DNA of 64,000 bases from a virus, in the IMG/VR virus record IMGVR_UViG_3300032291_003663, positions 27,060-91,059 of that record; one strand, 5' to 3'. Every line of letters starts with the position of its first letter. The first letter of the stretch is position 1. A program made the translations under genes and the position numbers. This document shows positions 4,464-22,068 of the stretch, piece after piece. The notes under the pieces are model-generated. The model saw only the letters and a program-made list of their open reading frames with translations, was not told where the DNA came from and did no database searches.

Positions 4464-4490
4464 CATATATTTATATACAAAACACAAATC

Positions 4491-4700
4491 ATGGAAAAGA
4501 AACCAACAAAAAAAGCCACTTCTAAAAAGAAAGTCGATGTTGCTCCTAAAACGAAAGTAGTTAAAAAGAAAGTATCCGATAGTATAGAAGATTCTTTCTT
4601 AGCTCCCGAAGCAACTCCTCATGTTGAACATTATGTTCATACTAGTCCAAAAGTAAAAAAATCATTTTGGACTAAAGCTAAGAACTTTTTGGGATTCTAA
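4491..4700 (+). CDS. small Lys-rich hypothetical protein
   Basis: ORF track; ATATTTATA at 4467. Confidence 0.6.
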   Translation: MEKKPTKKATSKKKVDVAPKTKVVKKKVSDSIEDSFLAPEATPHVEHYVHTSPKVKKSFWTKAKNFLGF

Positions 4701-4723
4701 TTTATTATTCGTAAATTTATAGC

Positions 4724-5155
4724 ATGACAGATAATTTAGTAAAATGCCACTGTTGTGGTGCTGAGATGTGTTACGAATATCATCATTCTCAATACATCCA
4801 ATGGATGTGCTTTAATTGTGGATATGGTAGTACATCACATATGGTTAAAGATAGTGATTTTATAAAAAATTCTAAAGAATCACTGCCTGAATTGATTAAG
4901 GATTTAGAAATCATAGATGAAGAAGGATTTATATGGTATCCAAGTACAATTAATGTTCCTGAAAAAGGTATGTTATTTCCAAATGGTGGAAATAAAGATG
5001 CTTGGGGATGGACAGTTGCTCCTTTAATATCCATTAAAGAAGAAGAAAGATCTCGTTTTCCTAAAAATCAAACACATAGAGTTGATTTAAACCACATGGA
5101 ACACTTTTCTAAGGAAAAATTTGCTGAAGCCGTTACAAAACTAAATTCTCTATGA
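4724..5155 (+). CDS. hypothetical Zn-ribbon protein
   Basis: CHCC...CFNCG. Confidence 0.7.
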   Translation: MTDNLVKCHCCGAEMCYEYHHSQYIQWMCFNCGYGSTSHMVKDSDFIKNSKESLPELIKDLEIIDEEGFIWYPSTINVPEKGMLFPNGGNKDAWGWTVAPLISIKEEERSRFPKNQTHRVDLNHMEHFSKEKFAEAVTKLNSL

Positions 5156-5511
5156 CAAGCCCAGAATTTATAATTTGGTTAAAAGGCTTTACTGAAGCTT
5201 GTAATGATTTTACAGCAACACCAAAGCAATGGGACCGAATTAAAGAAGTATTATATGAGGTAAAAGATTATGATGATAACCCTGATCTTGATCAGGAAAT
5301 AGAGAGAGGCTTCAATGATTGGTATCCAATTGAATATACAACTGGATCTGGGTCTATATCTATTTCTGGGTCTACATCTACCTATAATAATGTAGTATGG
5401 AGTGATCAAAGAGGAAGTTGGCATTACACTAACAACCCAGAAGGATTTGGATACTATGATGCAAACAATACAATGGATATTAAGAATAAAAAAGAATTAT
5501 TAAATGATTAA
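5152..5511 (+). CDS. hypothetical protein
   Basis: ORF track, ATGA coupling. Confidence 0.7.
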   Translation: MTSPEFIIWLKGFTEACNDFTATPKQWDRIKEVLYEVKDYDDNPDLDQEIERGFNDWYPIEYTTGSGSISISGSTSTYNNVVWSDQRGSWHYTNNPEGFGYYDANNTMDIKNKKELLND

Positions 5512-5514
5512 GTT

Positions 5515-6132
5515 ATGCCTTCAATTAGTTATGCTATCACTGCTCATAATGAAGTAGATGAATTAATTAGACTACTAAACCAATTAGTCAATATTGCCAA
5601 TAAAGAGGATGAAATAATCATTCAGCTAGACTTAACAGCAACTATGGGGGTAAAATATATTATAGATGAATATCCCACTGTTAAAAATATTGAGTTTGGA
5701 TTAAATAAAGATTTTGCTTCATTTAAGAATAATCTAAAAAATAATTGTACTAAAGATTACATATTTTTTATAGATGCAGATGAATATCCTTCTACTCATT
5801 TAATTAAGTTACTCAAACAAGTATTAACATCTCACGCTGATATAGATTGTTTTGCTTTACCTAGAATCAATACGGTTGATGGTCTTACTCAAGAACATAT
5901 TCAAAAGTGGGGATGGGTAGTAGACAATAAAAATAGAATTAATTGGCCCGATTATCAAACTAGAATTTGCAAGAATATTCCTGATATAAAATGGGTAGGT
6001 AAAGTTCATGAACGACTAGAAGGATTTAAAATTATCTCTCATTTCCCTTCAGAATATGAAGAATGGGCTTTAATTCATCCTAAGACAATCAAACGGCAAG
6101 AAATACAAAATAATCTTTACTCGCAAATATAA
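5515..6132 (+). CDS. GT2 glycosyltransferase
   Basis: ISYAITAHNE, FFIDADE (DxD), WPDYQTR, WVGKVHE. Confidence 0.9.
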   Translation: MPSISYAITAHNEVDELIRLLNQLVNIANKEDEIIIQLDLTATMGVKYIIDEYPTVKNIEFGLNKDFASFKNNLKNNCTKDYIFFIDADEYPSTHLIKLLKQVLTSHADIDCFALPRINTVDGLTQEHIQKWGWVVDNKNRINWPDYQTRICKNIPDIKWVGKVHERLEGFKIISHFPSEYEEWALIHPKTIKRQEIQNNLYSQI

Positions 6133-6135
6133 GTT

Positions 6136-6771
6136 ATGGCAAACGGAATATATAAGATAACTGAGGATTTTGAAAAAGCATTATCTGATTACACAGGTGC
6201 TCCTTATGTGATTACAGTTGATAATCAAAGTAACGCTTTATTTTTAGCTTTAAAATACGAAAATATTAAAGGAGTAGAAATTACTATTCCTTCAAGAACA
6301 TATCCCTCCGTACCCTGTGAAATAATACATGCAGGCGGGAAAGTAAATTTTAGAAAAATTAAAGGTAAAACCATTAAAGGGGCATACCAATTAGCTCCTA
6401 CCAAAGTATGGGATAGTGCTTTAAGTTTTACTTACAATATGTACAAACCAAACACTCATATGTGTTTATCCTTTACAGGTCCGTATAAACATTTTAAATT
6501 AAGTAAAGGTGGAGCTATATTAACGGATGACTTTGATGCTTATAGTTGGTTTAAAAGAGCAAGATATAGTGGCAGAAGAGAATGCTCATACCATGATGAT
6601 AATCTCGACATGTTAGGATGGAATTTCTATATGATGCCAGAATTAGCAGCTAGAGGATTATTACTAATGAATCAATTTTATCATGGTGGTATTCCAAGAC
6701 ACAACTATGATTTAGAATTATCATACCCCGATTTATCTAAATTTCCTATTTACACTCAGAACCATGACTAA
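6136..6771 (+). CDS. short DegT/DnrJ/EryC1/StrS-family PLP sugar aminotransferase
   Basis: FEKALSDYTGA, WDSA, SFTGPYKH..GGAI, GWNFYM; only 211 aa. Confidence 0.8.
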   Translation: MANGIYKITEDFEKALSDYTGAPYVITVDNQSNALFLALKYENIKGVEITIPSRTYPSVPCEIIHAGGKVNFRKIKGKTIKGAYQLAPTKVWDSALSFTYNMYKPNTHMCLSFTGPYKHFKLSKGGAILTDDFDAYSWFKRARYSGRRECSYHDDNLDMLGWNFYMMPELAARGLLLMNQFYHGGIPRHNYDLELSYPDLSKFPIYTQNHD

Positions 6772-7471
6772 TAAGGTAGCTATAATGCAACCATATTTCG
6801 TCCCATATATAGGCTACTTTCAACTAATCAACTCAGTAGATAACTTTATTATATATGATAATATTCAATATACTAAAAAGGGATGGATTAATAGAAATAG
6901 AATACTAGTTAATGGGAATGATAAAGTAATAACCTTACCTCTAAAAAAGGATTCTGATTATTTAAATGTAATGGATAGAAAATTATCTGAATCTTGGGAC
7001 AAGGATAAAAGAAAAATGTTAAATCTAATACACGTTTCATATCGTAATGCTCCTTATTTTATAGAAGCATATGATGTAATTCAAAAATGCTTGTTGGATA
7101 CCGAAGAAAATTTATTTACCTTTATATTAAATAATTTAAAAAATATAAATAATTATCTTGAAATTAAAACATCAATTATAGCTTCATCTGAATTAGATAT
7201 CGATCACTCTCTTAAATCACAAGATAAAGTATTAGCTATTTGTAAAGTACGAAAAGCTACTAAATATATAAATGCTATTGGTGGTATTGAACTTTATAAT
7301 AAAGAAGAATTTAAAAAACAAGATATTGAATTAAATTTTATAAAATCAAGTCCTATAAGCTATAAACAATTTAATAATGAATTTGTCTCTTGGCTTTCTA
7401 TTATTGATGTAATGATGTTTAATTCTAAAGAAACTATTAAACAATATTTAAACTTATATACTTTAATATGA
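6764..7471 (+). CDS. wbqC: WbqC-like protein (putative glycyl transferase)
   Basis: AIMQPYFVPYIGYFQLI, QYTKKGWINRNRI, YINAIGG, LSIIDVMM. Confidence 0.9.
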   Translation: MTNKVAIMQPYFVPYIGYFQLINSVDNFIIYDNIQYTKKGWINRNRILVNGNDKVITLPLKKDSDYLNVMDRKLSESWDKDKRKMLNLIHVSYRNAPYFIEAYDVIQKCLLDTEENLFTFILNNLKNINNYLEIKTSIIASSELDIDHSLKSQDKVLAICKVRKATKYINAIGGIELYNKEEFKKQDIELNFIKSSPISYKQFNNEFVSWLSIIDVMMFNSKETIKQYLNLYTLI

Positions 7472-8028
7472 AAAGTATACCCCACTATTACGAAAACATC
7501 CAAGGATGGTTTAGTTTTTCTAAATTATACTCTCATGTAGTACAGAAATATCCTAATGGAAGCCATTTTATAGAAGTTGGAGTATGGAAAGGCACATCAG
7601 CATCATACATGGGAGTTGAAATATATAACTCTGGTAAAAATATTAAATTTGATTGTATCGATCCATTTGTACCTGTAAAAAATGATATGCCTGAATTTGA
7701 AATAACTCATAAAGATTTAAAAAATACATTTATTAACAATATGAAGCCACTTAAAGGCTACTACAATCTCATACTAACCGGATCTCCAGAATGCACAGAA
7801 TTATATAAAGATAAATCCGTTGATTTCGTTTTCATTGATGGTGATCATTCATATAGTGCTGTTATGCAAGATATAAAAGCATGGCTTCCTAAAATGAAAC
7901 CAGGAAGTATTCTTGCAGGTCACGATTACGCATTTCCCGAAGTAAGAAAAGCATGTCATGATGTTCTTGGAGAAAAAAATTGGAGTGATCCTTTTGAATG
8001 TGATTGTTGGATGGTAGAAATTGAATAA
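7468..8028 (+). CDS. class I SAM methyltransferase (Methyltransf_24-like)
   Basis: EVGVWKGTS, FVFIDGDHSY, GSILAGHDY. Confidence 0.9.
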   Translation: MKSIPHYYENIQGWFSFSKLYSHVVQKYPNGSHFIEVGVWKGTSASYMGVEIYNSGKNIKFDCIDPFVPVKNDMPEFEITHKDLKNTFINNMKPLKGYYNLILTGSPECTELYKDKSVDFVFIDGDHSYSAVMQDIKAWLPKMKPGSILAGHDYAFPEVRKACHDVLGEKNWSDPFECDCWMVEIE

Positions 8029-8029
8029 T

Positions 8030-8986
8030 ATGAAATGGAAAAAATTAGGTAGGATATTTAATCCTCAAGATTATCAAACAGAGTGGATGAAAGAATTTGC
8101 TCAATGTACTAGTGCATTGGTGTTTGATACTTACGTTAGAATTTACTTTAGTTGTCGTCCTGAAAAAGATAAAGAGGGACAAGCAAAATCATACACTGCT
8201 TTTATAGATGTTGATAGAAATAATTTATTTAATATAATAAATGTAGCTAAAGAACCTATATTGCCACTTGGTGAATTAGGAACATTTGATGAATTTGCAG
8301 TATATCCTACTTCTGTGTTTAGAGACTATGAGGACATAAAATTATATTATGCTGGATGGAATAGGATGAAATCAGTACCATTTAATACATCAATTGGTTT
8401 AGCTATAAGTAAAGATGGAGGTACAACATTCAATAGAATAGGAGCTGGCCCCATATTGTCTGCTAGCACTGATGAACCATTTGTTATTAGTGGTCCTAAA
8501 GTAAGAAGATTTAATGGAATACTGTATATGTTCTACTTAGCAGGAACTAAATGGATAGAACATGAAGGTAAACCGGAAATTATTTATAAACTTAAAATGG
8601 CTGTTTCTAAAGATGGAATGCATTGGACTAAAATAAATAAAAATATTGTAAGTGATATTCTAGAAGAAAATGAATGCCAAGCAGGTCCTGATGTGTTTTA
8701 TCATAATGGAAAATACCATATGTACTTTATTTACAGATATGCGTTAGATTTTAGAAACAATAGAGGCAGGGGATACCAAATAGGATACGCATATTCAGAC
8801 GACCTAATCAAATGGACACGAGATGATGAAAATGTAGGAATACATTATTCCGAACCAGGTGAATGGGACGGGGACATGCATCATTATCCCCATGTGTTTG
8901 AATTAGATGGAAATCATTACATGTTATATAATGGAAACGAATTTGGTAAATATGGCTTTGGCCTTGCAATTTTAGAAAATGAATAA
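8030..8986 (+). CDS. five-bladed beta-propeller glycoside hydrolase-like protein (GH32/43/130-type fold)
   Basis: WKKLGRIF, repeated SxDG..W Asp-boxes, YMLYNGNEFGKYGFGLA; ATG at 8030 preferred over TTG at 8021. Confidence 0.75.
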   Translation: MKWKKLGRIFNPQDYQTEWMKEFAQCTSALVFDTYVRIYFSCRPEKDKEGQAKSYTAFIDVDRNNLFNIINVAKEPILPLGELGTFDEFAVYPTSVFRDYEDIKLYYAGWNRMKSVPFNTSIGLAISKDGGTTFNRIGAGPILSASTDEPFVISGPKVRRFNGILYMFYLAGTKWIEHEGKPEIIYKLKMAVSKDGMHWTKINKNIVSDILEENECQAGPDVFYHNGKYHMYFIYRYALDFRNNRGRGYQIGYAYSDDLIKWTRDDENVGIHYSEPGEWDGDMHHYPHVFELDGNHYMLYNGNEFGKYGFGLAILENE

Positions 8987-10145
8987 TATAAGTTTTAAAA
9001 TAAATACTTCAACGGTAAATGATATTAAGAAGCATCTTGAAGAATGTTCAATTCATTTTGCTCCTGCTTTAGACACATATGTTAATATAGAAGAATACGC
9101 TAATAAAATTTATAACAAAGCTGTTAGATTTGAAGCATTTAATGACTCTAAATTAATAGGTTTAATAGCAATGTATATTGACTTAAATAAAAAAATAGGA
9201 TTCATAACTAATGTAAGTATAGATATTGAATATAAAGGACAGGGTGTAGGGGGTATTTTAATAAATAAAGCTAAAAAACATGCTTCTAAAAACAATATTG
9301 AATTAATTGAACTAGAAGTTTATAATGAAAATATTAAAGCTATGGGTTTTTACCATAAACATGGATTTAATACATCCCAAATAAGTGAACAAACATCTTT
9401 TATGCAATATGAGTGTGAACGAGACTATGACCAGGAATTTCAAGATACAGCAGATCATAAGTATGCTTATAACTTTGATTTTGATGTAATGCATCCTTAT
9501 ATGATTAAATCCTTTGAGCCATTTTTTAAAGGAGATGATGTACTTGAGTTAGGTAGTTTTAAAGGTGATTTTACTAAACATTTATCTGGGTATTTTGCTG
9601 AGGTAGCATGTGTTGAAGCATCTCATAAAGCTATACAACATGCTAAAACTAAATTTAATGATGCTACAACATTCTATAATTCATTATTTGAAAATACAGT
9701 ATTATCTAAAAAATATAATAATATTGTATTAACACATGTTTTAGAACATGTAGATAATCCTGTAAAACTATTAAATAAAATTAAAGAGGAATGGTTAACA
9801 GATGATGGTTGCTTATTTGTCGTTTGTCCTAATGCTAATGCTCCTTCAAGACAAATAGCAGTTAAAATGGGATTAATAACACATAATAGCGCTATCACAC
9901 CAGCAGAAGCAGAACATGGGCATAGAATCACATATACATTAGACACATTAGAAAGAGATGCTAAACAAAGCGGATTAAAAGTAATTTACCGCTCAGGTAT
10001 ATTCTTTAAAGCATTAGCTAATTTTCAGTGGGATCAATTACTTCAAACAGACATTATAAGTAAAGAATATCTAGATGGATGTTATGCCTTAGGCCAACAA
10101 TACCCAGACTTATGTTCAAGTATATTACTAGTATGTAAAAAATAA
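8979..10145 (+). CDS. GNAT acetyltransferase fused to class I SAM methyltransferase
   Basis: N-terminal YKGQGVG...AMGFYHKHGF; C-terminal VLELGSFKG, LTHVLEH, VCPNA. Confidence 0.85.
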   Translation: MNNISFKINTSTVNDIKKHLEECSIHFAPALDTYVNIEEYANKIYNKAVRFEAFNDSKLIGLIAMYIDLNKKIGFITNVSIDIEYKGQGVGGILINKAKKHASKNNIELIELEVYNENIKAMGFYHKHGFNTSQISEQTSFMQYECERDYDQEFQDTADHKYAYNFDFDVMHPYMIKSFEPFFKGDDVLELGSFKGDFTKHLSGYFAEVACVEASHKAIQHAKTKFNDATTFYNSLFENTVLSKKYNNIVLTHVLEHVDNPVKLLNKIKEEWLTDDGCLFVVCPNANAPSRQIAVKMGLITHNSAITPAEAEHGHRITYTLDTLERDAKQSGLKVIYRSGIFFKALANFQWDQLLQTDIISKEYLDGCYALGQQYPDLCSSILLVCKK

Positions 10146-10150
10146 ATAAT

Positions 10151-11014
10151 ATGAAAGAATACATTTTACCGGGATATAATCCCAAACTGTTGATAAAAGA
10201 TAAAGAACGTATAGCAAAATTGTATAACGAATATGGTGTTGTTATATTCCCTGGGTTTTTAAAAAAGGATAAAAATTTTAAAAACTATATTAAAGATTTA
10301 AATTGGGTGTTTGAAGAAATTATTTCAAGACACAGTACTAAATCATTACCAAAAGATTTAGGAGATAAACTATCATTGTTAAATAAACTTAAAGCAATAG
10401 ATGGTAAGATAATTACAAATCTCGGTACTCAACCTAATAAATTTAATTCATTTAATATACTTAAATATTCTCCATGTGTAGATGCTATTTTAAAAGAAAT
10501 ATACGGAGAACAAGCAATAATAGCTACACCTCAAGCAGGTGATACCTTGCATTTCTTCCCATCCGGAGAAGAATTTTATAAATATAATTTACCTCCCCAC
10601 CAGGACTATCAATACTTGATGCAATCACCATCCCAAGCTACATTTTATATGGGGTTATCATCATATAAAGAAGATGTTGGAGGACTTAAAATATGGGAAA
10701 AATCACATAAATTAGGTATATTACCTACTACAACAAATGAATTTGGTTCATTTGAAGTTAAAGATAGTGAAATAATACTTAAAGAATTTGAAACTCTAGA
10801 TTATAAATGGGAAATGGGGGATCTTGGACTTTTTGATAGTTTACTATCTCATAGTTCTATCCCTAATAAAAGTAAAAAACACAGTAGAATTGTTCAGATA
10901 TTTAGATTTTCGGATCTAAACAATCAACAAGCTAAAGAATATGATTTTAAATCTGCTACATATAAACGAGACGGAATATTATTTGCTGATATACATTCAT
11001 CCTTATTAAGTTAA
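10151..11014 (+). CDS. PhyH-like 2OG-Fe(II) dioxygenase
   Basis: PPHQDY (HxD), GGLKIWEKSH, GDLGLFDSLLSHSSIPN..SR. Confidence 0.85.
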   Translation: MKEYILPGYNPKLLIKDKERIAKLYNEYGVVIFPGFLKKDKNFKNYIKDLNWVFEEIISRHSTKSLPKDLGDKLSLLNKLKAIDGKIITNLGTQPNKFNSFNILKYSPCVDAILKEIYGEQAIIATPQAGDTLHFFPSGEEFYKYNLPPHQDYQYLMQSPSQATFYMGLSSYKEDVGGLKIWEKSHKLGILPTTTNEFGSFEVKDSEIILKEFETLDYKWEMGDLGLFDSLLSHSSIPNKSKKHSRIVQIFRFSDLNNQQAKEYDFKSATYKRDGILFADIHSSLLS

Positions 11015-11020
11015 AAACAT

Positions 11021-11704
11021 ATGACAATACACGTAATTTATAGACACACAGACAATTTAGAAGCTTGCGGAGTAGGAAAGAATAGACCAAAATGGTTTTC
11101 ATTTGATGGATGTTTAAATAATATTCTATCAACTATAGAAGATGCTGATTTTGTGAAATTTCATTTAATATATGATGGTGAGTTTAAAGGTGAAATTGAT
11201 AAAAGAATAGACCATGTAGAAATAATTAATGAAAAATCTGCTATGGGGGCTTGGGTTAAAGCCTGGGACTATGCTAAAAGTTTAGATTTAAAAGATGATG
11301 ATTTAATTTATCATCTTGAAAATGACTATATGCACGCTTATGGATGGCCCTATAAAATAATGGAATTATATGATTTATACAGTGAAGTAGATTACGTTAC
11401 ACTTTATGATCATCCCCATTTCTACCATCCTAATGATTACCCTAATTTATCAACTAATATACTACCCACTTATTCACATCATTGGATCACTCGCCCCAGT
11501 ACTACAGGAGCGTTTATAGTTAACAAAAGAATCTTATTTGAAGATTACGACACTTGGGTGGATGGGCCAGGAGATTATCATAAATTCATATCGTTAGGAA
11601 AAAATAAGAAAAGAAATATCGTATCACCTATTCCTAGTTTATCTACTCATTGTGAAACAGAATGGTTAGCAACAACGGTAGATTGGGAAAAATTATCTAA
11701 ATAA
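11021..11704 (+). CDS. GT-A fold glycosyltransferase-like protein
   Basis: YHLENDYMH, YVTLYDHP, PSTT, SPIPSLSTH; lies within the glycan locus. Confidence 0.6.
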   Translation: MTIHVIYRHTDNLEACGVGKNRPKWFSFDGCLNNILSTIEDADFVKFHLIYDGEFKGEIDKRIDHVEIINEKSAMGAWVKAWDYAKSLDLKDDDLIYHLENDYMHAYGWPYKIMELYDLYSEVDYVTLYDHPHFYHPNDYPNLSTNILPTYSHHWITRPSTTGAFIVNKRILFEDYDTWVDGPGDYHKFISLGKNKKRNIVSPIPSLSTHCETEWLATTVDWEKLSK

Positions 11705-11706
11705 AA

Positions 11707-12987
11707 ATGATAGAATTATCTAATATACAGGCATTAGCCGGGAACCATGTTCCAAAATATATCTACAATGATCATTTTGAACCCGGAAATACACCTGTGT
11801 ATTATTCTGGTCCATACTGGGATAGTAGAGAAATAGTAGCAGCAATGGATTCTTTCCTAAATGGCAAATGGATTACAGCGGGAGAAAAAGTACACAAATT
11901 TGAAAGTCAATTTGGAAAACGTTTCAAAACCAAACATTCACATATGGTGAATTCTGGATCATCTGCTAATCTAATTTTAATAGCAGCTCTTAAAAAACGC
12001 TTTAAGTGGGAAGATGAAGATGAAATTATTGTATCGCCTGTTGGATTTGCAACTACTGTATCTGTATTATATCAAAATCGACTAAAACCAGTATTTGTAG
12101 ATATTGAATGGGATACTTTAAACTTTGACATTAACCAAATTGAAGCTAAGATAACACCTAAAACTAAAGGGATATTCGTATCACCTGTATTAGGTAATCC
12201 TCCTGATATAGACAGGTTAGTTAAATTATGTATTAAATATGATATAAAACTAATAGGAGATAACTGTGATAGTTTAGGAAGCAAATGGGAGGGAAAATAT
12301 TTAAATGAATACTACGTAGCATATGCTAATTCTTTCTATCCTGCTCATCATATTAGTACAGGAGAAGGGGGAATGTGTTGTACAGACGATGATGAATTGA
12401 AAAAATTATTTGTTAGTTTATCATGGTGGGGAAGAGATTGTTATTGTGTTGGTTCTGCTAATTTATTACCTTGTGGAACATGTGGAAACAGATTTGATAA
12501 ATGGTTAGAAAATTACGACGGCGTTATTGATCACAAATACGTATTCAGTGAAATGGGTTATAATTTAAAACCTCTAGATTTACAAGGAGCTATTGGATTG
12601 GTTCAATTAGAAAAATTAGATGAAATTGAAACTAATAGAAAACGCTCTAAAGAAACTATCTCTAAAATATTTACAGACAATATCTCAGGGTTGAGAACAC
12701 CAAGTACATTAAGCAAGGCTGATCCTTGTTGGTTTGGTACTCCATTTATATGTGAAGAGGAAGGACTAAAACACAAATTAGTTGCTCATTTAGAAGCAAA
12801 TAAAATTCAAACGCGTAACTATTTCGCAGGAAATATTTTATTACATCCTGGATATTCATCATTAGATGATTATAAGAATTATCCGGAGGCAAATAAGGTA
12901 TTAGATAAGGTATTCTTTATAGGAGCAGCACCTCACTATACTCAAGATGTATTTAACTATATTGAAGATATAATAAAAAAATTCTAA
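11707..12987 (+). CDS. rfbH: CDP-4-keto-6-deoxyglucose 3-dehydrase (RfbH/DdhC, E1)
   Basis: VNSGSSANL, DNCDSLGS, SFYPAHHISTGEGG (His in place of the PLP Lys), GRDCYC..CG.RF Fe-S motif, DHKY, GYNLK. Confidence 0.9.
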   Translation: MIELSNIQALAGNHVPKYIYNDHFEPGNTPVYYSGPYWDSREIVAAMDSFLNGKWITAGEKVHKFESQFGKRFKTKHSHMVNSGSSANLILIAALKKRFKWEDEDEIIVSPVGFATTVSVLYQNRLKPVFVDIEWDTLNFDINQIEAKITPKTKGIFVSPVLGNPPDIDRLVKLCIKYDIKLIGDNCDSLGSKWEGKYLNEYYVAYANSFYPAHHISTGEGGMCCTDDDELKKLFVSLSWWGRDCYCVGSANLLPCGTCGNRFDKWLENYDGVIDHKYVFSEMGYNLKPLDLQGAIGLVQLEKLDEIETNRKRSKETISKIFTDNISGLRTPSTLSKADPCWFGTPFICEEEGLKHKLVAHLEANKIQTRNYFAGNILLHPGYSSLDDYKNYPEANKVLDKVFFIGAAPHYTQDVFNYIEDIIKKF

Positions 12988-13727
12988 TGAAAATACTAGT
13001 ATTAGGAGATGGAAAGTTAGGATCTGAAATAATAAAACAGACAAATTGGGAGTATATTTCAAGAAAAAAAGATGGATTTGACTTTACAAATGCTCGTGAT
13101 ATTACTAAAGCACTAATAGAAGACCATCATGGAACTATACTAGTAAAAAAATATGACGCAGTAATAAACTGCATGGCTAATACTGATACTTATTCTACTG
13201 AAAAAGAACTAATGTATAAAGTAAATTATGAAGCAGTTGCTAACTTATCTGATATATGTAATGCTTATAAGATTAAATTAGTTCATATTTCAACAGATTA
13301 TGTTTATGCTGGTTCTGTAAATAATGCTACTGAAGAAGATATGCCTGTACCTTCAAATAACTGGTACACATATTATAAATTATTAGCTGATGAATATATT
13401 GCAATAACTAATTCTAATTACTTAATTTGTCGATGCTCATTTAAGTCAAAACCCTTTGAATTTAAGTATGCTTGGTATAACCAAATAGGTAACTTTGATT
13501 ATGTTGATGTTATAACAGAATTAATTATTAAACTAGTTAAAGGAGATGCTAAAGGAATTTATAATGTAGGTACTGAAACTAAAACTATGCTTGATCTAGC
13601 CAAACAAACAAAACCAGAAACTCAACCATCACAAAGACCAGATCACGCACCTGCAAATATTTCTATAGATATTAGTAAATTAAAAAATTTCTTAAATGAA
13701 AACACTAGTAACAATACTAAACCATAA
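12987..13727 (+). CDS. rfbD: dTDP-4-dehydrorhamnose reductase-like SDR
   Basis: GDGKLG, HISTDYVY, YTYYK (YxxxK). Confidence 0.85.
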   Translation: MKILVLGDGKLGSEIIKQTNWEYISRKKDGFDFTNARDITKALIEDHHGTILVKKYDAVINCMANTDTYSTEKELMYKVNYEAVANLSDICNAYKIKLVHISTDYVYAGSVNNATEEDMPVPSNNWYTYYKLLADEYIAITNSNYLICRCSFKSKPFEFKYAWYNQIGNFDYVDVITELIIKLVKGDAKGIYNVGTETKTMLDLAKQTKPETQPSQRPDHAPANISIDISKLKNFLNENTSNNTKP

Positions 13728-14430
13728 CCTACCAGAATATACTAATTTCTTATATAGGGAATTGAAACAACATCAAACAGACACACATGATATATTCGTG
13801 TTTGATAATGCTAGTTCACCTGAAGGACAACCTGAAATTGTACATTTATCAACAGATGAAAATTGCTATTTTGGAGGTGCTATGAACCTAGCATTTGAGT
13901 TTATATTAAATACAGATGAATATGATTCATTATTATTCTTAAGTAACGACGTTATTTTACATGGTAATAATTTTGTAGACACCTTGCGCAATGAAATGTT
14001 TGAGCATGATTATACCGTTTTATCTCCATCAGTACTGCAAATTAGAACGCAGCCTGATATGTGGAGACAAATGTTTAATTATGGAACTAAAAATGTAAGA
14101 CAAGTACCGTGGGTTGATTATATGTCACCTTTAATTCACAGACGTTTGATTGAAGAAATTCAACAATTTGACATGCGAATGATATACGGATGGGGACTAG
14201 ACATTTATTCAGGAATAGTATGTGAACAAAAAGGTTGGAAAATAGGAGTAGTTGATTATCTTGCAGCTGCACACTTAGTAGCAAAAACAACTAAAGAAGG
14301 CAAATCAGATATTACATCTGAACAATACTTTAGATTAGCTCAAAACGGAATGGATAGTTTCTTCTCTAGTAATGGATTAGATAGTGAAAAACACAGATTA
14401 ATGAATTTAGCTCAAACATATAAAGTATGA
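13696..14430 (+). CDS. GT2 glycosyltransferase
   Basis: ILNHN, DNAS, ENCYFGGAMN, FLSNDV, YGWGLD. Confidence 0.8.
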   Translation: MKTLVTILNHNLPEYTNFLYRELKQHQTDTHDIFVFDNASSPEGQPEIVHLSTDENCYFGGAMNLAFEFILNTDEYDSLLFLSNDVILHGNNFVDTLRNEMFEHDYTVLSPSVLQIRTQPDMWRQMFNYGTKNVRQVPWVDYMSPLIHRRLIEEIQQFDMRMIYGWGLDIYSGIVCEQKGWKIGVVDYLAAAHLVAKTTKEGKSDITSEQYFRLAQNGMDSFFSSNGLDSEKHRLMNLAQTYKV

Positions 14431-15320
14431 TAACATTTTGCGTCTCAACATATAATAATTTAGAATATCTTAAATGGTGTATTAAATCAGTAAAAGAAAA
14501 TGCTCATTTTAATACTGCTCCGTTTATAGTACATGCTGAAAACTGTACTGATGGAACAAATGAATGGCTTGAAGAAGTTAAAGATCAATATAATTTAGAA
14601 ATATATATTGAACCAGAAGTAAAACCTGCTCGAGGAATAGGGGGTGGAATGAACTTCTGTGCAGATAAGATAAAAACAAAATACATTATATTTCTTCAAT
14701 CTGATTTCTATGTTGCTAAGAATTTTGACTTAGCTTTATTAAATGAAATAGAAAAATATGAGAAACATTATATTATATCATCCTGGAGAATTCAACCAAA
14801 TATATTCAATAATCCTCCAATGAAACCGGGTAATATATTTTTTCCTATAGATTATCTTGGAGCATATTGGAATGATTTTCAAGATAAATACTTTATTGAA
14901 TTTGCAGAAGAATTCAGTGAATTAAATGATATACAAATTAGAAGAGGAGAAGGAGCAGGTGGATTTATAATTAAAAAAGAAGATTGGGATTACATTGGTG
15001 GAAATGATTCATTATTTGCTCCTACATCTTGGGAGGATATGGATTTATTTATTCGAATGCAAAATGAAGGATTTGAATTTATTCAAACAACAAAATCTGT
15101 AATTTGGCATTTTGCTGGACGAGGTTCGCATCGCTTAGAAGAAAATGAAGGACAATCATCTAATAGACAAAAAGAAACAGAACATATAAATGCAGGTAAA
15201 TTTTATCATAAATGGGGACAATTACCTCAAATAGATGAAAATGAATTTGTAAAACCAATACTATCAACCAAAAATAGAATGACATATGATATCACTAATA
15301 ATACCAGCTACAACATCTAA
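14427..15320 (+). CDS. GT2 glycosyltransferase
   Basis: STYNN, NCTDGT, FLQSDF, IGGND, WEDMDLFIR. Confidence 0.85.
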   Translation: MITFCVSTYNNLEYLKWCIKSVKENAHFNTAPFIVHAENCTDGTNEWLEEVKDQYNLEIYIEPEVKPARGIGGGMNFCADKIKTKYIIFLQSDFYVAKNFDLALLNEIEKYEKHYIISSWRIQPNIFNNPPMKPGNIFFPIDYLGAYWNDFQDKYFIEFAEEFSELNDIQIRRGEGAGGFIIKKEDWDYIGGNDSLFAPTSWEDMDLFIRMQNEGFEFIQTTKSVIWHFAGRGSHRLEENEGQSSNRQKETEHINAGKFYHKWGQLPQIDENEFVKPILSTKNRMTYDITNNTSYNI

Positions 15321-16218
15321 TCAACACTATACAGACTTTGCAATACAACAAATTCGAGAATTATATCCAAATGAAAACGAAGTTGAGATTGTAGTTGAAG
15401 TAAATGATAATGTAACATTAGGAATTAACTATAATAATGCCGTAGCTAAAGCTAAAGGTGAGATTGTGGTATTGATGCATAACGATATGGTACCACACCC
15501 TGGGTTTGTAGAAGCAATTTTAAAGCATATAGAGCGCAAATTAGTACTCGTTTATCATCGAATAGAACCGCCTATCTACACAGACACATATTTAGGCAAG
15601 TCAATATCTGACTGTGGTAAAGATATTGAAACATACGATAAAGATAAATTTTTCTCGTATAATAGTGATGACATGATATTAGAAGGTGGTTCACAATTAT
15701 TCTTTGCTGTTTATAAAGATGATTACTTAGATATAGATGGATATACATTTAAAAAGTTTTGTGAAGATGATGATGTACATTTAAGATATAAAACAGCAGG
15801 ATATCAATGTAAAGTTGCTACAGGCGCTATGGTTTATCACTTTGTAAGTAAAACATCAAGAGTTGATAACTATCAAGAAACTGAAATGCTATCTAATTTA
15901 GCGTTTATTAGAAAATGGGGCTTTAGAGTATCTAAATACAACAAGGTATATAAGAAAGCATATACACTTAAAGGTACTGCTCCTCATGATTTAATTAATG
16001 CTCTTAATCTATGGTTCACATCTACCCTTGCAGAGGCAAATGTGGTTGCCGAAATAAATGTTAGTACCTTTACTCAACAAGATTACGCGTTTTTAACGCA
16101 ATTAAATGACATAATTGCTGAGAGTGGTGAAGTGGGCACATTCGAATTAGGGAACGTTAAAATCAACGTTAAATCGCTAGAATCATTTGAAAAAGATTTA
16201 ATATTTATACAAAAATAA
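15286..16218 (+). CDS. GT2 glycosyltransferase
   Basis: ISLIIP, YNNAV, LMHNDM, FCEDDD, VYHFVS. Confidence 0.85.
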   Translation: MISLIIPATTSNQHYTDFAIQQIRELYPNENEVEIVVEVNDNVTLGINYNNAVAKAKGEIVVLMHNDMVPHPGFVEAILKHIERKLVLVYHRIEPPIYTDTYLGKSISDCGKDIETYDKDKFFSYNSDDMILEGGSQLFFAVYKDDYLDIDGYTFKKFCEDDDVHLRYKTAGYQCKVATGAMVYHFVSKTSRVDNYQETEMLSNLAFIRKWGFRVSKYNKVYKKAYTLKGTAPHDLINALNLWFTSTLAEANVVAEINVSTFTQQDYAFLTQLNDIIAESGEVGTFELGNVKINVKSLESFEKDLIFIQK

Positions 16219-19102: not shown

Positions 19103-19467
19103 GGGGGTAACTGGATTTGATTGCAATGAGAATTGTAGTATCACACGTAGAGGTAAGTGCTAGAAACTCTTTAAAACTGTACAAAACATTAACTGACGAA
19201 ATGTCAACTATGACCTTTGATTCTCTTATGAGTTTCATTGGTGCTGATTACGCTCTAGCAGCCTAATTCCTCCCGTACACATCATGGGACAATTAAATAG
19301 AATGTGAAACCAATGTGGCATAGGAGCCGAATCGAACTCCTATCACCGTCAGCTAACGCGGTGTGAGAATGTTAGATAAGTGTTCATTCTGAATAATGGA
19401 ATAAACGTGTGACATGCTGGTATTATAGTTACTTTGTAAGACGTGGGTTCGAATCCCACTACCTCCA
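19103..19467 (+). ncRNA. ssrA: tmRNA
   Basis: Acceptor GGGGGTA/TACCTCC with G3.U and discriminator A; 5' GGATTTGA; T-arm GTGGG-TTCGAAT-CCCAC; tag ORF 19195-19266 after TAACT, ending YALAA*. Confidence 0.95.
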
Positions 19468-19550
19468 CTAAAATAATCATTATAAACAAATTAAATTTTG
19501 AAACCCTATTTTAGGGTAATACATTTAATTAAATAAAAAACAAAAATAAC

Positions 19551-19703
19551 ATGAAAAAAGCAATTTTCGCTCTAGCATTAGTATCAGTATTATCAAGTTG
19601 TGGTGGTGGATCAAATGAAGTACCAACAATAGATTCAACAAAAGTAGATTCTGTAAAGGTAGATTCAACAGTAGTAACTGATTCTTCTGCAAATGTGAAG
19701 TAA
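19551..19703 (+). CDS. small lipoprotein (50 aa, not in ORF track)
   Basis: MKKAIFALALVSVLSS-CGGGSNEVPTIDSTKVDSVKVDSTVVTDSSANVK; lipobox LSSC; own promoter and terminator. Confidence 0.85.
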   Translation: MKKAIFALALVSVLSSCGGGSNEVPTIDSTKVDSVKVDSTVVTDSSANVK

Positions 19704-20087: not shown

Positions 20088-20173
20088 GCCCTTGTGGTGA
20101 AATTGGTAGACACGCAAGACTTAAAATCTTGTTCGCTGTAAAGCGAGTGCGGGTTCAATTCCCGCTGGGGGTA
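20088..20173 (+). tRNA. trnL: tRNA-Leu(TAA)
   Basis: D-arm GTG-AAATTGGTAGA-CAC, anticodon arm CAAGA-CTTAAAA-TCTTG, long variable arm, T-arm GCGGG-TTCAATT-CCCGC; acceptor stem has 4 G.U pairs. Confidence 0.85.
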
Positions 20174-20183
20174 CTTAGTTAAT

Positions 20184-20339
20184 TGTCAAGTGGTGAAAGC
20201 TAGATCAGCAGGCATACACACCCACTCGTCTCGTGGGCGCTGAGTTTGAAATAGATGTTTTGGGTATGGGTTGACCACAAGCCGGCTATTTTGTCCAACA
20301 TTGAATCACAGCGTGGAGGTTCGAATCCTTCCTTGACAG
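20184..20339 (+). ncRNA. tRNA-like RNA 1 (156 nt; non-canonical GTC loop, about 75-nt variable arm)
   Basis: Acceptor TGTCAAG/CTTGACA, stem CCCAC-TCGTCTC-GTGGG, arm closed by CGCTG/CAGCG, T-arm GGAGG-TTCGAAT-CCTTC. Confidence 0.75.
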
Positions 20340-20357
20340 CTTAAATATAGATACAAA

Positions 20358-20477
20358 AGGTTGATTGGGAAGCCTTACACCTTCATTAAAAAGTTGGAAT
20401 GTAAGCGAGGAGGTGTAGGAACCGAAGTAAAGCCAATCGTAAAAGTAGATGTCCACGCACCCATCTTCTACTTTCCT
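20358..20477 (+). ncRNA. unassigned structured RNA A
   Basis: GATTGG/CCAATC, 11-bp CTTACACCTTC/GGAGGTGTAGG, AAAGTAGA/TCTACTTT, AGG/CCT closure. Confidence 0.55.
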
Positions 20478-20487
20478 AAAATTATTG

Positions 20488-20605
20488 ACACGCACGGCAA
20501 CCGAAGTCATACTAGTCAAAGATTAGGCAATGCGAACAACCATGAAGAATACCTCACTGTGCGTAGGTAAGTTTTAAGTTCTTCTGACTGTGGGGAAAGA
20601 CCCAC
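20488..20605 (+). ncRNA. unassigned pseudoknotted RNA B
   Basis: AGTCA+GAAGAA/TTCTTCTGACT junction; TACCT/AGGTA hairpin whose loop CTGTGCGT pairs with ACGCACGG; GTGGG-GAAAGA-CCCAC. Confidence 0.55.
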
Positions 20606-20610
20606 TCTTT

Positions 20611-20718
20611 AGTCAGGTGGCGGAATTGGTAGACGCATTGAGGAATCTAAACTTGGTAACATTTGTTAGATTTAATAGTAATCCTCCTTCCTTACAGGTT
20701 CGAATCCTGTCCTGACTA
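20611..20718 (+). ncRNA. tRNA-like RNA 2 (no anticodon loop)
   Basis: Acceptor AGTCAGG/CCTGACT+A, canonical D-arm GCGGAATTGGTAGACGC, T-arm ACAGG-TTCGAAT-CCTGT; centre is an irregular GAGGA/TCCTC plus AATCTAA/TTAGATT stem. Confidence 0.8.
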
Positions 20719-20721
20719 CAA

Positions 20722-20925
20722 TGGGTAAGAGATACTCACTAGTCTTTAATTCAAGACTTAAACAATGGATTCGCAGAAAGTCTACGGCGCGAGTGGGACT
20801 TCATGGGAATAAAGGAGCGGACACAACTCCTCCCAGTAGTGTTGGATGTTTTTATGAGGGATGCCTCGCAGGTTTTTAAGAAATAGAAAACCGAAACAAC
20901 TACTCATCAGTAATCTCAAGGTGGG
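20722..20925 (+). ncRNA. unassigned multi-hairpin RNA C
   Basis: TGGGTA/TACTCA, AGTCTT/AAGACT, TGGGA+GGAG/CTCC+TCCCA, AGTAGT/ACTACT enclosing GAGG/CCTC and GGTTTT/AAAACC; possible GAGAT/ATCTC loop-loop pair. Confidence 0.55.
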
Positions 20926-20931
20926 GAAAAT

Positions 20932-21048
20932 AGTCAGGTGGGCGTAATGAGGGATGGTCCCGAGTCCTAGAGACCAATCGACACCTGTAAAGGTGCAAAA
21001 TGATGGAGTCGTAAGGTTGCTTATCCGGTTCGAGTCCGGCCCTGACTA
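20932..21048 (+). ncRNA. tRNA-like RNA 3 (no anticodon loop)
   Basis: Same acceptor AGTCAGG/CCTGACT+A as RNA 2; T-arm CCGG-TTCGAGT-CCGG; internal GGGA/TCCC and CACCT-GTAA-AGGTG hairpins. Confidence 0.7.
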
Positions 21049-21084: not shown

Positions 21085-22068
21085 ATGAAAACAAAATTAG
21101 TTACTGCTTATTACCCATTACATCAAGGCCCTCCATTTTGGGGTAAACAAAATAGAGAAAGATGGTACAAGCATTCAATTGCTTCAATATGTGAAACTAA
21201 AGTCCCAATAATTTGTTATACAGACGAACTTGGTTATGATGAGCTATTTGCTGTTAAAACTGATAGACAACTAGACAATCTTACAATTAAAATGTACGAT
21301 TTAACAACTAGTCAGTTTCATGATAGAGTTTATAAAGCAAGAATGGAAGGCAATCCTGAAATGTACAATAATGAGCTTCATCCATATTATAGAATGCCTG
21401 TTTCTGTTTATTGGATGAAATGGGGATTTTTAAAAATGGAATATGAAGAAGATACTTACATATATTGGATAGATGGAGGATTATCAACTCAAGGTGTATT
21501 TCCAGGTAGAGCATCATCATACGGAACAGATCCAGGATATTTTAAGAACTATAATGGAGAAGAAGGAGATTTTTATACAACACATGAGTTTAAATTATTC
21601 GTGTTTGATAAAATATTTAACCTCAATTTCATCCCCAATCTAAATAAATTTTCAGAAGGTAAAATAGTTAATATCTGTAGACAAGATTGTACGGATAATG
21701 ATTTTCATTTATTCGAAGAAAAACTAAACTTACCTAAAGGAAATATAATCTACACTAATAAATTCCCAGTAGGTGCCTTATTTGGAGGACATTCTTCCCA
21801 AATAATGAAGTATATAGATGAATTTAATGAGGTAGCAAATAAAGTTCTTGAAGTAGGAGATTATGTTTGTACAGAACAAGAAATAATGGGATATATTCAT
21901 TCAATACATCCCGATTGGTTTACAGATTGGACTTTTCATGACTTTTATCATGAAGATTGGAAATTAGCAAATGGTCCTAGTGTACTTATCCCATATAGAG
22001 AAGCATATCCTAATAATATTTCATTTAGTAAGTTATTTATAGATACTTTGGGAGCTCCTCAAGTTTAA
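21085..22068 (+). CDS. HtrL/YibB (WlaTC)-like glycosyltransferase
   Basis: KLVTAYY, YIYWIDGG, GALFGG, TEQEIM; ATATTTATA at 21063. Confidence 0.65.
   Translation: MKTKLVTAYYPLHQGPPFWGKQNRERWYKHSIASICETKVPIICYTDELGYDELFAVKTDRQLDNLTIKMYDLTTSQFHDRVYKARMEGNPEMYNNELHPYYRMPVSVYWMKWGFLKMEYEEDTYIYWIDGGLSTQGVFPGRASSYGTDPGYFKNYNGEEGDFYTTHEFKLFVFDKIFNLNFIPNLNKFSEGKIVNICRQDCTDNDFHLFEEKLNLPKGNIIYTNKFPVGALFGGHSSQIMKYIDEFNEVANKVLEVGDYVCTEQEIMGYIHSIHPDWFTDWTFHDFYHEDWKLANGPSVLIPYREAYPNNISFSKLFIDTLGAPQV

What the first reader, a model, noticed from the sequence alone, without database searches (positions are those of the whole stretch)
20611..21048. Two tRNA-like RNAs share an identical acceptor stem but have no anticodon loop
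Seen: 20611-20718 and 20932-21048 both have AGTCAGG/CCTGACT, discriminator A and a TTCGA T-loop, while their middles are unrelated long irregular stems. A conserved top half with a divergent bottom half suggests selection on the acceptor rather than random decay. Inference: decoys for host tRNA-targeting defences, or aminoacyl carriers for a non-ribosomal transfer. The WbqC-like glycyl transferase in this window is a speculative partner.
Basis: partly seen in the sequence, partly recalled or inferred. Interest (0 to 1): 0.75.

Follow-up and report, generated by a model that had tools for sequence, protein, structure and literature searches.

The report
Phage tRNA-shaped RNAs that cannot decode
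The two stretches are real phage genes for tRNA-shaped RNAs with other folded RNA where the codon-reading arm should be; they belong to two very large, uncatalogued phage RNA families that share one acceptor-stem "tag", and their job is still unknown.

Summary
Observation confirmed. A (20611-20718) and B (20932-21048) both carry AGTCAGG/CCTGACT, discriminator A and a T-loop, and neither has an anticodon loop.

They are not decaying pseudogenes.
- A belongs to a family with a constant tRNA-Leu-type frame (acceptor, D arm, T arm) and a hypervariable 20-100 nt insert. I held 260 different sequences with 217 unrelated insert types. Viral records carry at most about 13 copies, in phages of 34-288 kb.
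- B belongs to a second, separately conserved frame: GTAATGA, a GG-loop hairpin, and cargo in a second hairpin. It occurs in at least 120 viral contigs.
- A search for B's core alone, with no acceptor in the pattern, still returned AGTCAGG or a one-base variant in 50 of 74 elements. Real tRNAs of the same phages have diverse acceptor stems.

Neither family was found in the bacterial genomes searched, in Rfam or in the papers searched.

The A frame keeps every element that E. coli LeuRS needs, and the 15:48 tertiary pair covaries. Both families have the same 3' trailer as the neighbouring real tRNAs.

Best reading: tRNA-processed frame-plus-cargo RNAs, with the A type probably able to accept leucine. 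Function is unknown. WbqC as partner is not supported (0 of 40 other records).

Closest known are the T5 RNA1/RNA2 and T4 rnaC stable RNAs. This scan had already found the family on at least 27 other genomes.

The parts
20088..20174 (+). Canonical tRNA-Leu(UAA), first gene of the RNA island (context)
   Evidence: ARAGORN; Rfam tRNA 53.7 bits
20184..20339 (+). Element C, a third tRNA look-alike. Acceptor TGTCAAG/CTTGACA, discriminator G, T arm GGAGG-TTCGAAT-CCTTC, about 105-nt middle
   Evidence: Sequence. 86.5% identical to L024, with compensatory acceptor changes TGTAAGG/CCTTACA. No Rfam match
20413..20480 (+). Conserved hairpin RNA module between C and A
   Evidence: 81% identical to L024; also present in L063, L105 and L072
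20485..20610 (+). Conserved folded RNA module that ends exactly at the 5' end of A. In L063 and L001 it starts right after another frame element
   Evidence: 79% identical to L024. The GAAAGA-loop hairpin has covarying stems
20611..20718 (+). Element A, a tRNA-Leu-frame RNA. Acceptor 20611-20617 / 20711-20717; D arm 20620-20636; insert 20637-20693; T arm 20694-20710; A73 at 20718
   Evidence: Scores 39 bits on Rfam tRNA with the anticodon arm skipped
20719..20931 (+). Conserved ~210-nt folded RNA between A and B
   Evidence: Homologues in L084, L007 and L011, each ending at an AGTCAGG element. 33 predicted pairs, 6 with compensatory change
20932..21048 (+). Element B, the second frame type. 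Acceptor 20932-20938 / 21041-21047; GTAATGA 20944-20950; GG-loop hairpin 20951-20961; GAGTCC 20962-20967; cargo 20968-21014; GGTTGCTTA 21015-21023; T arm 21024-21040; A73 at 21048
   Evidence: Scores 82.9 bits on model R1; frame-A elements score 42 bits or less

Best explanation
A and B are genes for non-decoding tRNA-shaped RNAs built as a constant tRNA frame plus a variable cargo.

Shown:
- Both belong to large phage-restricted families. A is a tRNA-Leu-derived frame whose anticodon and variable arms are replaced by unrelated inserts. B is a second frame with a compact D-like hairpin and cargo in a second hairpin.
- Both sit in the phage's tRNA/tmRNA island.
- The two families share the acceptor stem NGUCAGG/CCUGACN plus A73, which real tRNAs of the same phages do not have.
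- They carry the same 5' leader and 3' trailer signature as the real tRNAs beside them.

Inferred:
- They are cut out by host RNase P and the 3' tRNA-processing enzymes and receive CCA. The tRNA frame therefore acts as a processing and stability handle and as a docking surface.
- The cargo gives each paralogue its own specificity, most likely by binding a host or phage factor.
- The A frame keeps every element that bacterial LeuRS is known to need, so A-type RNAs are probably also charged with leucine. B lacks the Leu-type D loop.
- The shared acceptor sequence is an identity tag read by a common partner, probably a host one.
For: Frame conservation:
- 260 different sequences. G2-G7 are each the majority base in 225-254 of them, and A73 is present in 228 of the 260 (170 of the 171 with the full Leu-type frame).
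- The Levitt pair covaries: A15:U48 in 138, U:A in 7, G:C in 4.
- The D arm is closest to tRNA-Leu among 20 isotypes.

Leucine identity (PMC9976931): E. coli LeuRS needs A73, A15-U48, G18G19 and the D/T-loop contacts. It does not need the anticodon or the variable arm.

Processing: the trailer is C74 (239/260), then A or T, then A76. The commonest forms are CAA and CTA, as in 275 canonical tRNAs of the same loci.

Cargo matters:
- One insert subtype (10 phages) has an 8-bp stem and a hairpin with 12 compensatory pairs, plus an invariant GTGGTATAAAT.
- The B cargo and the B hairpins covary.

Cargo turns over: against syntenic L024 the flanks are 79-96% identical and the A insert 50%.

Shared tag:
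- A core-only search for B gave AGTCAGG in 30 of 74 elements, and AGTCAGG or a one-base variant in 50 of 74.
- After removing the elements that matched the search pattern, 39 of 99 non-canonical top halves lie within one base of AGTCAGG, against 11 of 195 canonical tRNAs.

Phage-restricted:
- 27 MAG contigs only, among 185,579 species genomes.
- None in 401 and 81 sampled genomes of the phylum of one of those MAGs, titled Chitinophagia.

No linked phage gene: the commonest neighbouring protein family occurs in 18 of 148 loci. The family is present in complete phages as small as 34 kb.
Against:
- A's own insert is a singleton, and its fold is not better than shuffles (z -1.24). Inserts overall are only mildly structured (mean z -0.67).
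- Fast divergence of inserts is also what relaxed constraint would give.
- LeuRS identity rules come from E. coli, and the host here is unknown, possibly Bacteroidota.
- LeuRS does not read acceptor base pairs, so leucylation does not explain the conserved acceptor sequence.
- No cargo target was found.
Confidence: 0.5

Rival explanations
1. Dedicated aminoacyl carriers. The RNAs are charged (A-type with leucine) and, being unable to decode, hand the amino acid to a non-ribosomal transferase that recognises the shared acceptor stem. The cargo is secondary.
For: - The A frame keeps the full E. coli LeuRS identity set.
- There is precedent for a phage enzyme using charged tRNA off the ribosome: Mu Mom, PMC13219725.
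- From memory, acceptor-stem sequence is what tRNA-dependent transferases usually read.
- The window encodes WbqC and a GNAT-methyltransferase fusion.
Against: - WbqC is absent from 40 of 40 other family-bearing records.
- No transferase gene is linked.
- B lacks the Leu-type D loop yet shares the tag.
- Conserved, covarying cargo is unexplained.
- Complete 34-40 kb phages carry the family.
Confidence: 0.2
2. Decoys or sponges. The tRNA top half soaks up a host tRNA-binding defence protein, or a tRNA-end-modifying toxin, and so protects real tRNAs.
For: - Phage-only distribution.
- Multiple copies per genome.
- A conserved top half and fast-changing middles fit an arms race.
Against: - There is no anticodon loop, so they cannot decoy anticodon nucleases.
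- The acceptor stem was not found on any tRNA-sized element in the 81 sampled bacterial genomes, so it does not copy a host tRNA there.
- Conserved cargo subtypes are not needed by a top-half decoy.
Confidence: 0.15
3. Processing punctuation. The look-alikes exist mainly as RNase P and 3'-processing cut sites that release the conserved small RNAs lying between them.
For: Conserved folded RNAs abut the elements exactly: 20485-20610 ends at A, 20719-20931 runs from A to B, and the same junctions occur in L024, L063, L001, L084, L007 and L011.
Against: - Many records have single or back-to-back copies with no such RNAs between them.
- Ordinary tRNAs would serve equally well.
- This explains neither the conserved acceptor sequence nor the conserved cargo.
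Confidence: 0.1
4. Intron-containing tRNA genes, or recent tRNA pseudogenes.
For: - ARAGORN in intron mode can force a model on 103 of 125 elements.
- A few members are near-canonical tRNA-Leu(CAA), for example L027:5644-5731 and L007:2002-2095.
Against: - The forced anticodons are arbitrary (Leu, Lys, Ser, Cys, Val and others) on a Leu-type frame.
- No conserved anticodon-loop remnant flanks the insert.
- There is no group I intron match.
- Frame conservation and covariation across hundreds of phages exclude decay.
Confidence: 0.04

Closest known systems
Phage T5 RNA1 and RNA2 (AY543070, 30501-30644 and 32959-33083; annotated 'tRNA-like stable RNA with unknown functions')
   Same: - They lie in the phage tRNA cluster among other unexplained stable RNAs.
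- RNA1 has a Leu-type D arm (CCGGAATTGGTAGACGG), a T arm, a paired acceptor and about 85 nt where the anticodon and variable arms should be.
- RNA2 has the T arm GCAGGTTCGAATCCTGT.
   Different: - Different acceptor stems (TGGAATA, ATTCTAG).
- No detectable similarity in the inserts.
- No full-length match by BLAST against 50,697 phage records.
- Single genes in one phage group, rather than a family with hundreds of cargo types.
Phage T4 species 1 and 2 RNAs (rnaC, rnaD; NC_000866 70908-71171)
   Same: Stable RNAs of unknown function at the end of the tRNA cluster. rnaC ends in a T arm (CCGGGTTCGAATCCCGG) and an acceptor-like stem.
   Different: No Leu-type D arm, a different acceptor, and no sequence similarity.
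Class II bacterial and phage tRNA-Leu (Rfam RF00005)
   Same: Acceptor, D arm, T arm, A73, A15:U48 and the processing flanks. A passes the Rfam threshold at 39 bits.
   Different: No anticodon stem-loop. Canonical tRNAs in these loci mostly score 43-73 bits and frame elements 30-45, with some overlap near 43-45. B does not match at all.
Engineered 'tRNA scaffold' for expressing recombinant RNAs, and tRNA-linked viral small RNAs of murid herpesvirus 68 (both recalled from memory, not checked here)
   Same: An RNA of interest is carried in or beside a tRNA body, so that tRNA-processing enzymes mature and stabilise it.
   Different: One is man-made and the other eukaryotic (Pol III driven). This is a resemblance in how it works, not membership.
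YrlA / bacterial Y RNAs and tmRNA tRNA-like domains
   Same: Non-decoding RNAs that imitate the tRNA elbow and acceptor.
   Different: No Rfam match to either. From memory, the YrlA tRNA-like part is closed at the acceptor end, and tmRNA needs G3:U70 and a tag reading frame. Here 3:70 is U:A.

Membership tests
Canonical tRNA (RF00005) | 7-bp acceptor stem, T arm with TTCRA loop, discriminator | tested here: met
   Both A and B. B has four of five standard T-stem pairs.
Canonical tRNA (RF00005) | 5-bp anticodon stem with a 7-nt loop carrying U33 and an anticodon | tested here: not met
   ARAGORN calls neither element. Rfam skips 34 nt in A. B has no match.
Canonical tRNA (RF00005) | Score over the Rfam gathering threshold (29 bits) | tested here: inconclusive
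   A scores 39 bits with sensitive filters but was missed by the default scan. B shows nothing at E up to 10.
Phage tRNA-Leu-frame RNAs (uncatalogued; model R2) | AGTCAGG acceptor plus A73, Leu-type D arm GCGGAAT(T)GGTAGACGC, T arm ACAGGTTCGAATCCTGT, and an unrelated insert between D and T arms | tested here: met
   A meets every feature. B meets only the acceptor and A73.
Second frame (uncatalogued; model R1) | GTAATGA, GGNN-NGG(T)-NNCC hairpin, RARTCC, CCNN...NNGG hairpin or cargo, GGTTGC, T arm | tested here: met
   B scores 82.9 bits; frame-A elements score 42 or less. The core motif occurs in at least 120 viral contigs. Covariation.
T5 RNA1/RNA2 and T4 rnaC type stable RNAs | Encoded in a phage tRNA cluster, with tRNA-like acceptor and T arm and an oversized middle | tested here: met
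   Searches compared.
T5 RNA1/RNA2 and T4 rnaC type stable RNAs | Accumulates as a stable processed RNA in infected cells | not testable with these tools
Leucine-accepting tRNA (E. coli LeuRS identity set) | A73, A15:U48, G18G19, D/T-loop tertiary contacts; anticodon not needed (PMC9976931) | tested here: met
   For the A family: A73 in 170 of 171, A15:U48 in 138 of 171 with covariation, GG and TTCGA conserved. B does not meet it, having no Leu-type D loop. Actual charging cannot be tested here.
Group I intron-containing tRNA | Intron of 200 nt or more with a group I core, in the anticodon loop | tested here: not met
   Inserts are 20-100 nt. No Intron_gpI match in the window region or in 137 kb of related loci.
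tmRNA / YrlA | Match to the family model; G3:U70 for tmRNA | tested here: not met
   No match. Position 3:70 is U:A.

The most novel reading that the evidence does not exclude
The shared acceptor stem AGUCAGG/CCUGACU plus A73 is an identity tag. It routes a whole class of non-decoding tRNA-shaped RNAs (at least two different frames and hundreds of exchangeable cargos) to one partner. On this reading, phages run a modular RNA display platform: the tRNA body secures maturation, stability and perhaps leucylation, and the cargo is a rapidly exchanged effector such as an anti-defence aptamer or a regulator.
Probability: 0.25. Interest if true: 0.9.

Novelty: new variant of a known kind. Interest (0 to 1): 0.7.

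Why it matters
Phage tRNA clusters have held unexplained tRNA-like stable RNAs since the T4 and T5 work of the 1970s and 1980s. This window shows that such RNAs are not curiosities.

- They form very large families in uncultivated, mostly freshwater phages.
- They have a fixed frame, exchangeable cargo, and an acceptor-stem tag shared by two different frames.

If the frame is charged or docked by a host enzyme, this is a new way for viruses to use the tRNA shape outside decoding. It would also be a natural counterpart of the engineered tRNA scaffold.

The old question becomes testable. The frame is defined well enough to synthesise, charge, pull down and delete.

Tried and rejected
- Named phages: BLAST of the region and of a family member against 50,697 phage records gave only tRNA-Leu or T-arm fragments, never both halves of an element.
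- Relatives through the downstream protein (21085-22065): none found.
- Rfam at permissive thresholds on A, B, C and the spacers, and at gathering threshold on 137 kb of related loci: only tRNA.
- Intron reading: ARAGORN intron mode gives arbitrary anticodons.
- Antisense targets of the A, B and C inserts in the phage's own 91 kb: the longest matches of 11-14 nt are within the shuffle range.
- Protospacer-like origin of inserts: the 260 inserts searched against 1.3 Mb of masked loci matched only other family members.
- Linked protein partner: the commonest neighbouring family occurs in 18 of 148 loci and is a terminase. The others are packaging, helicase, RNase H-like and homing endonuclease genes.
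- WbqC co-occurrence: 0 of 40.
- Host tRNA with the same acceptor, and B core in bacteria: not found in the 81 and 401 genomes searched.
- B-type in five MAGs that hold family contigs: none, apart from one 33-bit match in the frame-A score range.

Full report
**What is in the sequence**

The window is the 3' 64 kb of a 91-kb IMG/VR virus record estimated to be 53% complete. Between 19.1 and 21.05 kb lies a gene-free island. Its G+C is 41-47% over the tRNA and look-alike array (about 20.1-21.1 kb), against about 30% in the coding flanks. The island holds, in order:
- a tmRNA gene, 19103-19470 (Rfam 81 bits);
- a small ORF on each strand;
- tRNA-Leu(UAA), 20088-20174;
- three tRNA look-alikes separated by long spacers: C at 20184-20339, A at 20611-20718 and B at 20932-21048.

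Both carry AGTCAGG/CCTGACT, discriminator A and a TTCGA T-loop, and their middles are unrelated. ARAGORN calls neither. Rfam's tRNA model matches A at 39 bits only by skipping 34 nt where the anticodon arm should be. B matches nothing in Rfam at E up to 10.

**A belongs to a very large family**

Of the 132 hits, 115 carry a T-loop that was not in the pattern, and nearly all carry GGCGGAAT(T)GGTAGACGC.

A looser scan of the held loci gave 260 different sequences of 61-156 nt. In them:
- the acceptor, U8, the D arm, U48, the T arm and A73 are nearly invariant;
- the middles fall into 217 unrelated groups.

The D arm is closest to tRNA-Leu among all isotypes called in the same loci. The Levitt pair covaries (A15:U48 in 138, U:A in 7, G:C in 4), so the tRNA core fold is under selection.

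A model of the frame (R2) found it in 40 of 40 viral records tested. Matches per record ranged from 1 to 13, a count that includes some low-scoring canonical tRNAs. The records include complete phages from 34 to 288 kb.

In the genome collection of 185,579 species, the 3' half occurs only on 27 MAG contigs, mostly freshwater Bacteroidota bins. In arrays such as L007, L106 and L110 the elements sit among ordinary tRNA genes whose acceptor stems are all different.

**B belongs to a second family**

Fourteen relatives align over their whole length. Compensatory changes occur in the acceptor stem, the T stem and a GGNN-NGG-NNCC hairpin, in 11 of 14 predicted pairs. Model R1 separates this type cleanly: 57-87 bits, against 42 or less for A-type elements.

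A search with the core motif alone (GTAATGAGG..GGT..CCRARTCC, no acceptor in the pattern) again reached the limit of 120 viral contigs. It found nothing in 401 sampled genomes of the phylum of one of the MAGs above, whose record title says Chitinophagia.

The 74 complete, different elements fall into three main length classes: 74-81, 115-118 and 132-134 nt. Six elements lie between them. The minimal form is a four-armed cloverleaf whose second hairpin (CCNN...NNGG, covarying) is where the larger forms, including B, carry their cargo.

**The shared acceptor stem is the strongest point**

Among those 74 B-type elements, found without reference to the acceptor, 30 have AGTCAGG exactly. Fifty have it or a one-base variant, and 54 have discriminator A.

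I then removed the elements that matched the original search pattern. After that, 39 of 99 non-canonical top halves lie within one base of AGTCAGG, against 11 of 195 canonical tRNAs. Ten of those eleven are short family members that ARAGORN happened to call.

Element C has TGTCAAG, and TGTAAGG in L024 with compensation. No tRNA-sized element with GTCAGG...CCTGAC was found in 81 sampled genomes of that same phylum.

So two, perhaps three, structurally different non-decoding frames share an acceptor sequence that real tRNAs lack.

**They are processed like tRNAs (inference from flanks)**

Position 74 is C in 239 of 260 elements. It is followed by A or T and then A (CAA 102, CTA 51). The 275 canonical tRNAs of the same loci show the same pattern (CAA 137, CTA 43). 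Position -1 is T in 187 of 260. None of the three window elements encodes CCA.

**Cargo is functional in at least some types, and it turns over**

- One insert type, seen in ten phages, forms an 8-bp stem directly under the D arm. The stem encloses a hairpin, and an invariant GTGGTATAAAT follows. Twelve of 28 pairs show compensatory change.
- Across 164 members the inserts are mildly more stable than shuffles (mean z -0.67).
- Against the syntenic locus L024, element C is 86.5% identical, the spacer modules 79-81% and the A frame 88-96%. The A insert is 50% identical, with gaps.
- A's insert has no relative in the held data.

**What reads the frame**

E. coli LeuRS needs A73, the A15-U48 pair, G18G19 and the D/T-loop contacts. 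It needs neither the anticodon nor the variable arm, and truncated tRNA-Leu lacking those arms is still charged (PMC9976931). The A frame keeps exactly this set, so leucylation is a reasonable inference for A-type RNAs. It is not for B, which lacks the Leu-type D loop.

LeuRS does not read acceptor base pairs, so the conserved acceptor sequence points to a further partner. No phage protein is linked: the commonest neighbouring family occurs in 18 of 148 loci and is a terminase. Complete 34-40 kb phages carry the family. A host factor is therefore more likely.

WbqC is real (6764-7468, 228 bits) and sits in a sugar-modification cluster. It is absent from all 40 other records tested. One paper places WbqC in tRNA-ProX operons (PMC10404621), and Mu Mom shows that phage enzymes can use charged tRNA (PMC13219725). 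These are precedents, not evidence for this locus.

**Comparison with what is known**

- T5 RNA1 has a Leu-type D arm, a T arm, a paired acceptor and a large middle.
- T5 RNA2 has the same T-arm sequence as this family. Both lie among other unexplained stable RNAs in the T5 tRNA cluster.
- T4 rnaC ends in a T arm and an acceptor-like stem.

The kind is therefore known, with unknown function. New here are the scale, the frame-plus-cargo organisation and the acceptor tag shared between frames.

A 2023 catalogue of 10,006 candidate viral RNAs mentions tRNA-like candidates only in passing (PMC10690425). I found no description of this family in the papers searched.

**Earlier findings of this scan**

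Look-ups by words and by sequence show that the scan met the same family on at least 27 other genomes. Follow-up agents reached the same reading and named the same closest relatives. I re-derived these points independently before looking. I add:
- the B frame as a separate large family;
- the unbiased test of the shared acceptor;
- the 15:48 covariation;
- the shared trailer;
- the WbqC test.

**Verdict**

The elements are real, selected, non-decoding tRNA-shaped RNAs of two large phage families. Their function remains unknown. The best reading is a tRNA-processed frame carrying exchangeable cargo, with the A type probably able to accept leucine.

Noticed in passing
window 19103-19470 (+): Phage-encoded tmRNA (Rfam 81.4 bits) that ARAGORN missed. 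By my own reading, the tag frame ends ...GADYALAA-stop.
   Followed up: partly
window 20184-20339 (+): Third tRNA look-alike (C). It has discriminator G and a 7-nt loop UCGUCUC on a CCCAC/GUGGG stem. It is 86.5% identical to L024, with compensatory acceptor changes. Earlier scan notes call relatives 'aspartate-type giant-armed tRNA look-alikes'.
   Followed up: partly
window 20413-20610 and 20719-20931 (+): The 'spacers' are conserved folded RNAs found in other phages at the same junctions with frame elements. None matches Rfam. The 52-aa ORF at 20721-20879 is probably not a gene.
   Followed up: partly
window 20580-20617 (+): The leader of A contains CTGACT, followed by a hairpin with a conserved GAAAGA loop. 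CTGACT could pair with the 5' acceptor strand AGTCAG as an alternative to the acceptor stem. The arrangement is kept in L024 and partly in L001 and L063.
   Followed up: no
related loci L001-L148: Canonical tRNA genes of these phages are followed by C-A/T-A (CAA 137, CTA 43 of 275) rather than CCA. This is a shared 3' trailer signature.
   Followed up: partly
window 20088-20174 (+): The canonical tRNA-Leu(UAA) has an acceptor stem in which four of the seven pairs are G-U (GCCCTTG / TGGGGGT).
   Followed up: no
window 1726-16218 (+): A long sugar-modification cluster in a phage. It includes GT4 and GT2 glycosyltransferases, two DegT-type aminotransferases, WbqC, methyltransferases, a GNAT-methyltransferase fusion (8979-10142), an RmlD-like reductase and a PhyH-type dioxygenase.
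   Followed up: partly
window 19551-19703 (+): A 50-aa ORF between the tmRNA and the tRNA array. By eye it starts like a lipoprotein signal (MKKAIFALALVSVLSSC...).
   Followed up: no
L024:5040-5300 (-): The syntenic phage carries about 220 extra G+C-rich bases between its C element and the first spacer module. This is probably another small RNA gene.
   Followed up: no
L027:5644-5731 (+), L007:2002-2095 (-): Family members with the AGTCAGG frame and a nearly normal anticodon arm (loop UUCAAUU, or an 8-nt UUCAAGGU). They are possible links to the ancestral tRNA-Leu(CAA).
   Followed up: no
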